64,000 nucleotides of DNA from Eledone cirrhosa (Eukaryota): the NCBI GenBank assembly GCA_964016885.1, contig CAXHJY010000768.1, positions 1 to 64,000 on the forward strand. Reading direction: 5' to 3'. A model generated the notes under the pieces. That model was not told where the DNA came from. It did not search any database and saw only the letters and a program-made list of their open reading frames with translations. Within the stretch, counting starts at the first letter, position 1; the number at the start of each line of letters is the position of its first letter. Positions 765-63,397 of this stretch are shown here, piece by piece. Position numbers and translations under genes: made by a program.

Positions 765-1035
765 CCAGGAAGCTCCAACCGTTAAGGTTGTCTTTTTTTT
801 CCGGGTATGTCAATATTTATTTATAAAACAAATCTGTATTTTATCTGATGAAGGCGCACCATAATTTCCCTTGGTCGCCCTTGAAATATGTATAATAAAA
901 TAAATATGGTTTTATAAATATAGTTTCCATTTATTAATATATTGTGTATTTACTCCACTAAACTGTTGAGTGCTTTATATCAGTTATAAAATGTTTAAGC
1001 TTGTTGAATCCCAACAAATTAAATATAACCTCTGC
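765..1035 (+). mobile_element. Short non-coding hammerhead-bearing element, family F (Penelope-like derivative)
   Basis: Homologous to 1082-1535, 29561-29975, 42482-42760, 43635-44070 and 57366-57623; flanked by (TA)n. Confidence 0.75.
837..902 (+). ncRNA. Type I hammerhead ribozyme motif
   Basis: tattttat-CTGATGA-[aggcgcacca..tggtcgccctt]-GAAA-tatgta-TA-ataaaata; 8-bp stem I. Confidence 0.8.
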
Positions 1036-1081
1036 ATATATATATATATATATATATATATATATATATATATATATATAT

Positions 1082-1535
1082 ACGATATTAAACAAATGGA
1101 AACTATATTTATAAAACCATGTTTATTTCGTTATATATATTTCTGGGATATCATATTAAAAATATGGTATGCCTTCCTCAGACAAAATACAATACATAAG
1201 CTGTTTTATAAATAATTATTGACATACCTTGTAATAATGCAACTTCTATTTAAAAAACTACCAAATCAACTTTTTAAATGGAAGTTGCATTATTATAAGG
1301 TATGTCAATAATTATTTATAAAACAGCTTATGTATTGTATTTTGTCTGAGGAAGGCATACCATATTTTTAATATGATATCCCAGAAATATATATAACGAA
1401 ATAAATATGGTTTTATAAATATAGTTTCCATTTGTTTAATATCGTAAACCTACTCCAGAAACTGTTGAGTGCTTTTATATCAGTTATAAAATATTTACTC
1501 GTTGTAACCCAACAATTTAAATAAAACTTTTGCAT
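1082..1535. mobile_element. Fold-back family-F element with inverted arms (about 1082-1256 / 1271-1446), each carrying a hammerhead (1124-1189 minus; 1338-1403 plus)
   Basis: Near-perfect inverted repeat of about 175 bp; tattttgt-CTGAGGA...GAAA-tatata-TA-acgaaata, with a compensatory stem I change relative to 837-902. Confidence 0.8.
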
Positions 1536-1741
1536 ATATATATATATATATATAATTAGTCCTGCATCAGTGATCTTCCAACCTTCATTGGTATTTCATC
1601 ACTTTAAACATCATATACCTCTAGTAGGCGCGAGCAATAATAAATAAAGTTATTGGGACAAGTAAAATAGGGTGAGGCGAGCGAGATATGTAAACAAACA
1701 ACGATGGTATGGCAACAGAAAGATAGAAAGAGACAAGCACA

Positions 1742-2135
1742 TCATCATCATCATCACCGTTTTACGTCCGTTCTTCCATGCTAGCATGGGTTAGACGGGT
1801 TGTCCTGTTGTGGGCAGTGTCTGGTCGGCTGACCATGCCTTGTTCATACAGGAACTGATTCTGGCTTGATTTCTACAGCTGGATGCCCTTCCTAACACCA
1901 ACCTCATTTACAGTGTGGGCTGGGTGCTTTTTTGCCGTGGCACCTCCACGACCACTTTACAGTGGAATGATAGGGACCCCAGTCCCTATCATCTCATTTC
2001 TACAGCTGAGTAAACTGGAGCAATGTGAAATAATGTGTCTTGCTCAAGGAAACAACACATCACCCGGTCTGAGAATTCAACTCACAACCTTCCGATTGCA
2101 AGCCCAATGCTCTAACCACTAAGCCATGTGCCTCC
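1742..2135 (-). mobile_element. tRNA-derived SINE family A (CORE-like domain, (GAT)n tail)
   Basis: Minus strand: A-box TGGCTTAGTGG, B-box-like GAGTTGAATTC, CCTTGAGCAAGACAC core-like motif; multiple copies in the window. Confidence 0.8.
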
Positions 2136-2157
2136 ATATATATATATATGTATGTGT

Positions 2158-61637: not shown

Positions 61638-61757
61638 AGGAGCAACGTGAAATAAAGTGTCTTGCTCAAGGACATAACGCATCGCCTGGTCCAGGAATCG
61701 AACTCACAAACTTACGATTGCGAATCCAATTCTCTAACCACTCCGCCACACGCCCTC
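61638..61757 (-). mobile_element. tRNA-SINE head and core related to family A
   Basis: Minus strand: TGGCGGAGTGG A-box, GAGTTCGATTCC B-box, GTCCTTGAGCAAGACACTT. Confidence 0.75.
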
Positions 61758-61829
61758 AATATATATATATATATATGAAAATGGACGTTAAACGATGATG
61801 ATGATATATATATATATATATATATATAG

Positions 61830-62020
61830 TTACGTTTTTCCGGGTTGAATCGGAGGTGACCACAGTAAGTAAGGTACTCAATACATAGCAGAGTATAAAA
61901 GTTTTAATATAGATGAGATTCTACAGGACTAGAACCGTTTCATTCTTTAGGGATTCCTGATGTTTTCTAAAGAATGAAACAGTTCTAGTCCTGTAGAATC
62001 TCATCTATATTAAAACTTAT
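61830..62020. mobile_element. Fold-back family-A' element; plus-arm hammerhead has a mutated core (CTGATGT)
   Basis: Matches 56511-56568 and 31085-31190. Confidence 0.75.
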
Positions 62021-62714
62021 ATATATATATATATAACGAAGGAGTTGTGGTAAGGAACCAGATGGACCATAACGCACCAGAGTACTCAATACTTAAGGTA
62101 GTAGAGTGGGTAATAGGACAAAGTATGACTCCGACGGCAGAGCTCAAGCCGTTTCGACAGCTATTTCTGTGTCCAGAAATAGCCATCGAAACGGCTTGAG
62201 CTCTGCCGTCGGGGTTAAACATTTTCATATATATATATATATATATATATATATATGTGTCAGTGTTGAACAAAATGGCAACGATGGTTGCCGAACACTG
62301 TACAGCTTAATTCGGGCTGTTTGTTTACAAACAAACCGAGCATTATAATAAATGTTTGGTAAACCCATACGTACATATATATGTGTGTACATGTATATAT
62401 ATATACATACTACTGTACGTCTGTATACATATATGTATGTACGTATACATACTTATATTTAAGTAACAGCCGTACTAAGAGTGAGAAATGAAATTTCATT
62501 TTTTCCATTTATTGTTTTCGGTACGCCCTGCCGACTAACTCACTCGATATGCAAATTAGGCTGCATTTTTTGTCTCTCTCTATATATATATGTATGTAAA
62601 AGGTAAACAGAAATAACAACACAATCGGTACAGTATATGGAAGGGATATATTAGGTTAACGCTTGATATAGCAGGAAGAGGGTCTTATATATATATATAT
62701 ATATATATATATAT

Positions 62715-63060
62715 ATAAATTATTAAAAAGATAATGAATAAACAAAGAAACAGTTCCTTATATTAAACAAAAAAAGTTCATTATTTTACGAAAAATAGTT
62801 AGTTCAAATCCCGCCGAGGTTAACTTTGCCTTTCATCCTTACGGGGTCGATAAAATAAAGTACCAGTAATACACTGGGTGATTGCTGGCCTTGTGCCTAA
62901 AGTAGAAACAATTATTTTACGAAAAATAATGAACTTTTTTTGTTTAATATAAACAAAATAATCGTAAAATATAAACAAAATAATCGTAAAATAATGAACT
63001 TTTTTTGTTTAATATAAGGAACTGTTTCTTTGTTTATTCATTATTTTTTTAATAATTTAT
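62715..63060. mobile_element. Inverted repeat of about 80 bp interrupted by a SINE family B fragment (62801-62915)
   Basis: Arms 62715-62797 and 62982-63060. Confidence 0.65.
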
Positions 63061-63397
63061 CTTGACTCTGTATTCCGTTTATCTTTCACCGAAAGAGATT
63101 TTTGAATGCATCTCTTCTTTTCATGATATCCGGAGTACATTGAGTTCTTCATACGGATTGGACACTACCGTAAACTTTTGGTAGATTTATCTACATATAT
63201 ATATATATATATATATAACCAAAAGTTAAACAAGGTTCATTGATTAATCAATGAATATAGTTTTACAATAGATTAGAAGCACTCAACAGTGAAGTTTTCT
63301 GGAGCTATTAATATTACTTCAAAATATTAATAAATATAGACATTCATGTAATCAAATATATTTTATTATATATATTTCAGAGGTACTGTGCTGTTTC

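What the first reader, a model, noticed from the sequence alone, without database searches (positions are those of the whole stretch)
765..63397. About 19 intact hammerhead ribozymes in several small non-coding element families inside one gene's introns
Seen: stemI-CTGANGA-stemII-GAAA-stemIII-NTH-stemI' motifs. Plus strand: 837, 1338, 15859, 19920, 26823, 36200, 43379, 43969, 56511, 56818, 57436. Minus strand: 1124, 19720, 29588, 30305, 36453, 42524, 43318, 58383. There are also core mutants (29780, about 43800, 61952) and truncated halves. The stems differ between families while the core is fixed, and stems covary within a family (tattttat/ataaaata vs tattttgt/acgaaata; gcttc/gaagc vs gagattc/gaatctc; ttca/tgaa vs ttct/agaa). 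Established: Penelope-like elements and retrozymes carry minimal type I hammerheads. Inference: these 150-450 bp elements are a diverse set of non-autonomous or heavily truncated Penelope-like retroelements that insert into (TA)n, at about one ribozyme per 3-4 kb. I cannot tell from the window whether this has been described in this taxon.
Basis: partly seen in the sequence, partly recalled or inferred. Interest (0 to 1): 0.85.

Follow-up and report, generated by a model that had tools for sequence, protein, structure and literature searches.

The report
Octopus jumping genes scatter 155,000 hammerheads
The hammerhead RNA motifs in these octopus introns are the ends of Penelope-type jumping genes and of small tandem RNA-repeat elements, which together leave over 155,000 such motifs in the genome, and their mirror-image insertions suggest that both are likely pasted in by the same enzyme working from both DNA strands at once.

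Summary
All 19 motifs are real and far above chance; two more were missed (31998, 52339). They lie in or beyond introns of a minus-strand PTPRN2/IA-2 gene of an octopus-like genome. Most are the 3' repeat (pLTR) of Hydra-clade Penelope-like elements: identical ends flank RT + GIY-YIG ORFs with the Hydra motifs elsewhere. Two (36488, 31998) belong to 310- and 556-nt tandem non-coding units, i.e. non-LTR retrozymes. Five exact patterns give 155,262 motifs genome-wide. Hammerheads in truncated PLEs, opposite-strand pairs and an octopus Hydra element are published. Not found in my searches: 80 of 86 unselected inverted pairs have one long and one short 3' end; short copies stop at promoter-like start sites; and retrozyme arrays carry the same two-ended, head-to-head PLE footprint (11 of 11, 14 of 16), with identical units on both arms in four arrays. 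Inferred mechanism: two-strand target priming in (TA)n by the PLE enzyme, rolling round a circular RNA for retrozymes. Cleavage, expression and circles were not tested.

The parts
765..1035 (+). Family A copy (Hydra PLE 3' end), hammerhead core 845, predicted cut after 894, long 3' end
1083..1533 (.). Family A (A3) head-to-head pair: hammerheads 1181 (-, short end) and 1346 (+, long end); A.A at 10.1-11.1
12686..13005 (.). Family M half-hammerhead hairpins (3' half only of a U3.A8-core hammerhead)
15825..16059 (+). Family E copy, hammerhead 15864, best monomer fold of those tested (z -2.8)
19596..20020 (.). Family C head-to-head pair: 19782 (-, long end) and 19928 (+, short end)
26673..26985 (+). 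Family F copy, hammerhead 26831; link to an ORF only suggestive
29560..29974 (.). Family A pair: 29640 (-) and core mutant 29788 (+, long end)
30214..30455 (-). Family H copy, hammerhead 30349; old family (74-84% to relatives), tail found joined to the unit start in some copies
31852..32437 (-).
36145..36310 (+). Family C copy, hammerhead 36208, short end
36329..36590 (.). Retrozyme G fragment pair: 36488 (-, short end) plus a partial + arm with the long end; unit is 310 nt in tandem arrays elsewhere
42262..42432 (.). Family F half-hammerhead hairpin
42484..42760 (-). Family A (A3) copy, hammerhead 42580 (short end) joined to a partial inverted long tail
43234..43449 (.). Family B hairpin pair: 43361 (-, long end) and 43384 (+, short end), both starting in stem I
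43634..44073 (.). Family A pair: core mutant 43824 (-, long end) and 43977 (+, short end)
50920..52500 (+).
56510..56566 (+). Family B minimal copy, hammerhead 56518, starts at stem I, short end
56760..56885 (+). Family D copy, hammerhead 56826; 3' side runs into a 21-bp tandem array
57366..57620 (+). Family A copy, hammerhead 57444, long end
58335..58514 (-). Family D copy, hammerhead 58441
61829..62023 (.). Family B hairpin: core mutant 61957 (+, short end) and half motif (-, long end)
62036..62226 (.). Family M half-hammerhead hairpin, long + short ends
63218..63397 (-). Family D 3' half
13296..60107 (-). Host gene: PTPRN2/IA-2-like receptor tyrosine phosphatase; exons near 60107-59959, 42146-42072, 36048-35971, 32777-32658, 29222-29050, 13355-13296
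   Evidence: (90% to Octopus bimaculoides protein)

Best explanation
The motifs are hammerhead sequences in the terminal repeat of Penelope-like retroelements, mostly of the Hydra clade, and in two non-coding tandem units (retrozymes), and the element's reverse transcriptase-endonuclease likely inserts both kinds into (TA)n by priming on both target strands at once. Shown: the same ends flank RT + GIY-YIG ORFs in the order pLTR-ORF-pLTR; every family has two fixed 3' ends, 33-120 nt apart; inverted pairs take one end of each kind; short copies pile up at fixed 5' points. Inferred: the mRNA starts at a promoter inside the pLTR, so priming at the two sites just behind the hammerhead copies only the 60-270 nt back to the cap and gives the short elements; one target strand primes at the short site, the other at the long site, and the two cDNAs are joined head to head. 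For retrozymes the template is inferred to be a self-cleaved, circularised monomer that each RT runs round several times, giving tandem arrays on both arms. The solitary intron copies are predicted to cleave poorly, because their palindromic loop III needs a second ribozyme and paired copies fold into long hairpins; they are likely by-products without a role for the host gene.
For: ORF link: 28 of 116 family A, 8 of 35 C, 6 of 16 I copies have a PLE protein match upstream on the same strand (partly selected by ORF searches); continuous pLTR-ORF in A (L075), C (L206), B (L370), M (L339). Hydra motifs RW(K/R), DKT, CxCX5C, CxxC, CxH match the clade definition (PMC8557442 section 11). Two ends: 359 of 397 copies end at a short or long point in a TA run; 80 of 86 classifiable unselected pairs are long + short, 5 short + short, 1 long + long, 13 more unclassifiable. 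Either arm reaches further 5' (long arm 44, short arm 74, equal 25 of 143, selected loci included), with junction overlaps mostly -2 to +2 nt. Two RT start sites and nicking of both strands are shown in vitro for an anole PLE (PMC11167929). 5' pile-ups: family B at 39-46 nt before the cut, 29-31 nt behind a TATAAATA box kept across subfamilies (4,976 copies keep the box against 24,368 with the core); M at 41-45 nt, behind TATTTAAA and at TCA/GT (54,367 half motifs against 4,319 whole); C at TTTTC/ATATG in 12 of 24 ends; 77 of 180 ends lie at a YCA against 21% expected. Retrozyme G: 13,367 motifs in 310-311-nt arrays; 11 of 15 loci had two readable arms, all 11 long + short; units identical across both arms in 4 arrays (12, 9, 6, 6 units) while arrays differ by 1-17. 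R2: 14 of 16 two-armed loci long + short.
Against: No RNA evidence: no start site, cleavage end or circle was observed. R2 units within an array differ by 2-13 changes, overlapping the between-array range (2-83), so single-template origin is not shown for R2; G arrays L411 and L415 hold 3 and 9 unit variants. The G and R2 samples come from the first 83 Mb of one chromosome. C and E 5' ends start with ATAT, which annealing to the TA target could also explain; no TATA box was seen for A, C, D, E. 5' extents rest on alignment to long copies and can mistake subfamily divergence for an end. F and H have no firm ORF link, and the partner of G and R2 was not identified. Pfam and PDB sequence searches gave no RT or GIY-YIG match for the ORFs, so the assignment rests on motifs and on likeness to the published Hydra alignment; no tree was built.
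Confidence: 0.75

Rival explanations
1. Same identity, but the hairpins arise by fold-back: one cDNA (or an antisense RNA) self-primes and copies itself, as proposed for rotifer Penelope.
For: Arkhipova 2013 inferred self-priming from palindromes at inverted junctions (PMC3846280). Arms within a locus share subfamily variants.
Against: Fold-back needs the long-tailed arm to be the template and so to reach at least as far 5'; the short-ended arm reaches further in 74 of 143 pairs, often by tens of bases. Junction overlaps are mostly 0-2 nt.
Confidence: 0.1
2. The short elements are self-propagating SINE-like families with their own promoters, independent of full-length mRNA.
For: Fixed 5' and 3' ends, tens of thousands of copies, and identical junctions recurring at several loci. 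Solo pLTRs could be transcribed.
Against: B and M short copies begin downstream of the TATA box and so lose it; M short copies lack half the ribozyme; their sequences match ORF-linked copies; junctions vary base by base between loci.
Confidence: 0.12
3. The 5' pile-ups are reverse-transcriptase stalls or microhomology joins, not RNA 5' ends; and the retrozyme arrays grew after insertion by unequal crossing-over or were copied from linear multimeric transcripts.
For: B ends fall in stem I and M ends in stem II, both structured; C and E ends begin with ATAT. Li et al. 2026 favour local amplification. A linear multimer from an existing array would also give like units.
Against: Conserved TATA spacing in two families. 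Both arms of an array share array-private variants and end at the two PLE-type points, which crossing-over does not produce; private variants in every unit point to a one-unit template.
Confidence: 0.2
4. The ribozymes have been kept because they act on the host PTPRN2 pre-mRNA.
For: 9 of 21 motifs are sense to the host gene; density is 5-fold above average.
Against: No strand bias (12 antisense, 9 sense); copies are ordinary members of families with thousands of copies; the window is 60% tandem repeat, the target sequence; mutant cores sit beside intact ones.
Confidence: 0.04

Closest known systems
Hydra clade of Penelope-like elements, incl. Hydra-1_Obim (Craig et al. 2021, PMC8557442)
   Same: C-terminal GIY-YIG, RWK-like, DKT, CxCX5C, CxxC and CxH motifs; (TA)n targets; 3' hammerhead, often with U.U flanking stem II; already recorded in Octopus bimaculoides.
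   Different: The paper lists one octopus family with another hammerhead sequence and no pLTR; here at least six families, pLTR-ORF tandems, tails of 70-100 nt, and over 130,000 motifs.
Minimal PLE hammerheads (Cervera and de la Pena 2014, PMC4209133)
   Same: Type I, palindromic loop III, several families per genome, mostly single or opposite-strand pairs 100-700 bp apart, ascribed to truncated PLEs; a U3-A8 core variant as in family M.
   Different: Counts there are about 2,000-9,000 per genome; no mollusc named in the parts read; no long/short or start-site rule.
Metazoan non-LTR retrozymes (Cervera and de la Pena 2020, PMC7229834; Li et al. 2026, bioRxiv 10.64898/2026.07.22.740005)
   Same: Non-coding tandem units with one type I hammerhead each; PLE mobilisation and circular templates proposed; axolotl has 126,247 motifs.
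   Different: Head-to-head arrays with PLE long and short ends in (TA)n were not found in the passages read; R2 (556 nt) is longer than the 150-450 bp range; no octopus.
PAc Poseidon element of Anolis (Frangieh et al. 2024, PMC11167929)
   Same: Two internal RT start sites bounding the tail; both DNA strands nicked and extended; hammerhead in the pLTR, needing protein to cleave.
   Different: PAc starts at a site not homologous to the target; here both start points lie just before TA-rich RNA that could pair with (TA)n.
Rotifer Penelope with inverted pLTRs (Arkhipova et al. 2013, PMC3846280)
   Same: Inverted pLTR, tail on one arm only, TATA box plus Inr in the pLTR, solo pLTRs.
   Different: Self-priming was proposed from a few copies; the counts here favour two-strand priming.

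Membership tests
Type I hammerhead ribozyme | Core CUGANGA, GAAA and UH in type I order | tested here: met
   19 of 19
Type I hammerhead ribozyme | Stem I with covariation | tested here: met
   at least 5 pairs in 19 of 19; 75 of 80 pairs against 38.9 permuted
Type I hammerhead ribozyme | Stem II closed by a 10.1-11.1 pair | tested here: inconclusive
   12 of 19 paired; 4 U.U (Hydra-type), 3 A.A
Type I hammerhead ribozyme | Self-cleavage at the UH site | not testable with these tools
   needs in vitro assay
Minimal PLE hammerhead (dimer type) | Short self-complementary loop III | tested here: met
   self-duplex -3.2 to -15.2 kcal/mol against hairpin 0 to -1.4 for six loop types
Penelope-like element | Single ORF with RT then GIY-YIG | tested here: met
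   G(L/I)YRDD and GIY-type motifs in ORFs of 540-700 aa linked to families A and C, partial frames for B, M; no Pfam or PDB match
Penelope-like element | pLTR by partial tandem, inverted 5'-truncated copy, optional tail | tested here: met
Hydra clade PLE | RWK-like, DKT, CxCX5C linker, CxxC and CxH around E and N | tested here: met
   A, C, M complete or near; B, D, E partial
Hydra clade PLE | Insertion in (TA)n | tested here: met
   359 of 397 copies
Hydra clade PLE | Placement in an RT tree | not tested
   reference sequences seen only as supplement text
Neptune/Nematis PLE (first considered for A; likely for family I) | CX2-5CxxC linker | tested here: not met
   families A, C, D, M have CxCX5C; only the remnant at 50920 has CX4CxxC
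Non-LTR retrozyme (G, R2) | Tandem non-coding units, one hammerhead each | tested here: met
   G 310-311 nt, up to 27 units, longest frame 59 aa; R2 about 556 nt, 2-4 units
Non-LTR retrozyme (G, R2) | Expressed as linear and circular unit-length RNA | not testable with these tools
   no usable RNA run (see Tried and rejected)
Non-LTR retrozyme (A-E, B, M) | Tandem non-coding units | tested here: not met
   no regular same-strand spacing under 1,200 nt in the loci held

The most novel reading that the evidence does not exclude
This genome records the full life cycle of animal retrozymes: a Hydra-clade PLE enzyme, acting on both strands of a (TA)n target, primes at two sites of one self-cleaved circular RNA and rolls round it in each arm, writing a mirror-image tandem array in a single event; the same two-site priming near the capped end of PLE mRNA mass-produces the short hammerhead hairpins, giving the densest hammerhead genome among those in the papers read.
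Probability: 0.55. Interest if true: 0.72.

Novelty: new member of a known kind. Interest (0 to 1): 0.5.

Why it matters
The identity is ordinary for specialists: hammerheads in truncated PLEs are known. The value lies in the numbers. Two open questions are named in the papers read: how PLEs make their inverted and tailed insertions (Craig 2021; Frangieh 2024), and which enzyme moves animal retrozymes (LINE or PLE left open in Cervera 2020; only phylogenetic support in Li 2026). Here thousands of young copies give a countable footprint (one long and one short end per event) that retrozyme arrays share with Hydra PLEs, and young identical-unit arrays name a defined RNA (310 nt) and candidate enzymes for a direct in vitro test. 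The hairpins are also a large source of intronic double-stranded RNA in an animal known for heavy A-to-I editing (recalled, not tested).

Tried and rejected
Rfam scan: microRNA-like noise, no hammerhead among the 150 of 374 rows shown. The repeat finder on the whole window returned only the GGT arrays. Pfam on 2 + 3 ORFs and 4 homologues, and PDB on one ORF: no RT or GIY-YIG match. Neptune was my first reading of family A and was dropped on the linker motif. A CUGANGA core for family M was sought and gave 46 chance chimeras before the U3.A8 core was found. MAFFT across families misaligned the cores, so covariation was counted on motif-anchored stems instead. RNA: no RNA holder listed for window:43200-44100; a G unit laid on three guessed-RNA contig sets of other organisms gave no cover, and one run of unknown kind holds it with unit-to-unit joints; neither bears on expression. 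ORF link for F: one copy with an endonuclease fragment 216 nt upstream but a microsatellite between; for H: one of 20 loci with a fragment about 700 nt upstream, continuity not shown. 55333 and 26050 have CUGANGA but no proper stems and were not counted. Missing 3' exons of the host gene were not found in 1-13290. Earlier findings of the scan: none. Lunse et al. (dimer cleavage) was not held and is known only from the review's citation. Supplements of the Li 2026 preprint were not seen; its four invertebrate species are unknown to me.
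Full report
Observation. All 19 motifs are in the sequence, with full core, UH triplet and at least five stem I pairs. A strict descriptor finds 9 of them against 0.055 per shuffled window (200 shuffles, max 1). 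Stem I covaries across families (75 of 80 pairs, 38.9 when permuted). Two more were missed: 31998 (-) and a degenerate one at 52339 (+). 'Intact' holds for the core only: 7 of 19 lack the 10.1-11.1 pair, and loop III is a palindrome that pairs better between two molecules than within one, the mark of dimer-type PLE hammerheads (PMC4209133, parts 1-2 of 4 read; PMC6765202, passages).

Setting. The window is the start of contig C795 of a 3.0-Gb genome, about 60% tandem repeat. Six minus-strand exons encode a PTPRN2/IA-2 phosphatase, the first 90% identical to the Octopus bimaculoides protein. Sixteen of the 19 motifs are between these exons; three lie past the last exon found. Counting the two additions, 9 are sense and 12 antisense to the gene.

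Abundance. Exact patterns give 108,960 (palindromic six-base loop; control 284), 24,368 (family B; control 0), 13,367 (G), 4,319 (M) and 4,248 (R2): 155,262, one per 19 kb, as lower bounds without a stem check. The window has 18 of these against 3.3 expected. For scale, the papers give about 9,000 for Xenopus, over 6,000 for a coral, about 5,000 for a mussel and 126,247 for axolotl (PMC7229834, passages), and 235 Rfam hits for giant squid (PMC6962438, passages).

What most of them are. Following family A upstream leads to an ORF with RT and GIY-YIG motifs. Locus L100 shows the textbook form: inverted short repeat, ORF, then the hammerhead. Continuous hammerhead-tail-ORF copies exist for A, C, B and M, and ORF-bearing copies for D and E. 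The proteins carry RW(K/R), DKT, CxCX5C, CxxC and CxH, which define the Hydra clade (PMC8557442, section 11, passages and part of the supplement read). That supplement lists Hydra-1_Obim with a hammerhead and (TA)n targets. Pfam and PDB did not recognise the ORFs and no tree was built. Family M has the U3.A8 core, a variant reported in Schistosoma. The remnant at 50920-52500 has a CX4CxxC linker and is likely Neptune/Nematis-type. F and H remain unlinked.

Two ends per insertion. Each family ends at one of two points in a TA run (359 of 397 copies). Of 99 inverted pairs from loci not chosen by an end-bearing query, 86 could be classed: 80 long + short, 5 short + short, 1 long + long. A tail on one arm is described (PMC3846280, passages), and in vitro it marks two RT start sites of an enzyme that nicks and extends both strands (PMC11167929, parts 1-2 of 4). 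Fold-back would need the long-tailed arm to reach furthest 5'; instead it does so in 44, the short arm in 74, and neither in 25 of 143 pairs (selected loci included). I infer separate priming on each target strand and a head-to-head join. In pLTR-ORF copies both end points lie just before TA-rich sequence that could pair with the target.

Why the copies are short. 5' ends pile up: B at 39-46 nt before the cut, 29-31 nt behind a TATAAATA box that subfamilies keep while the spacer diverges; M inside stem II behind TATTTAAA, so that 54,367 half motifs face 4,319 whole ones; C at TTTTC/ATATG (12 of 24 ends); overall 77 of 180 ends lie at YCA against 21% expected (180 were those close enough to a long reference to score). 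PLE promoters lie in the pLTR (PMC2377424, passages). I infer that these are run-off copies to the RNA's start, primed at the 5' pLTR. Stalling or microhomology cannot be excluded for C and E.

Retrozymes. Family G (36488) is a 310-311-nt non-coding unit in arrays of up to 27, typically a minus arm facing a plus arm. Of 15 loci read, 11 had two readable arms and all 11 had one short and one long end about 33 nt apart, 10 in (TA)n; one locus was complex and three showed one arm. Units were identical across both arms in four arrays (12, 9, 6, 6 units) and along one arm in a fifth; two arrays held 3 and 9 variants; arrays differ from each other by 1-17. R2 (31998, about 556 nt) gave long + short in 14 of 16 two-armed loci among 22 read, but its units differ by 2-13 within arrays. 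So the footprint is shared with the Hydra PLEs (shown), PLE mobilisation is likely, and a circular one-unit template is the simplest reading for G (inferred). Cervera 2020 left LINE or PLE open; Li 2026 (parts 1 and 3 of 5 and passages; supplements not seen) gives phylogenetic support and favours local amplification.

Function in the host. Nothing points to one: no strand bias, mutant cores beside intact ones, high-copy families, and a region rich in the target repeat. Single PLE hammerheads were inactive or weak in vitro and the anole one needed protein, so the intron copies are predicted to cut poorly.

Novelty. The kind is known, down to an octopus Hydra element. Verdict: real; new members of known kinds; interest 0.5, carried by the testable mechanism rather than by the motifs themselves.

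Noticed in passing
window 25989-26210 and 1556-1731: A repeated element (family K) with CTGATGA but no GAAA half in any of 4 relatives read; ends in TA runs; nature unknown.
   Followed up: partly
window 28058-28897, 37039-38326, 50208-50780: Minus-strand LINE 3' fragments sharing a 3' end, next to (ATAG/AGAC)n repeats.
   Followed up: no
window 15480-15825 and 47742-48200: LINE reverse-transcriptase fragments; the family E copy abuts the first.
   Followed up: no
window 2276-6097, 53978-54809, 35149-35640, 32907-34968: Minisatellites of 49, 49, 77 and 72 bp; the 49- and 77-bp units derive from dispersed SINE-like repeats also present singly in the window.
   Followed up: no
window 56865-57365: A 21-bp tandem array (24 copies) made from the loop III, cut site and stem I of the 56826 hammerhead.
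   Followed up: no
window 61155-61452, 62739-63036, 52080-52139: Further head-to-head hairpins without a recognised hammerhead, probably tails of other PLE families.
   Followed up: partly
L097 and L075, 50 nt before the family A start codon: The 5' UTR holds two short segments complementary to segments of the tail, in parallel order; possible RNA structure at the long priming site.
   Followed up: no
L418 and L228: Chimeric copies in which one family's 5' part joins another family's 3' part (A3 to G; I to M), suggesting template switching between PLE RNAs.
   Followed up: no
L026, L407, window 43361-43384: Short repeated or untemplated pieces at arm junctions, as from repeated re-priming at the end of a template.
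   Followed up: partly
L421-L440 (family H): The CTGATGA core is kept in all 20 loci although flanks differ by about 20%; tail-to-start joins suggest an old tandem unit of about 390 nt.
   Followed up: partly
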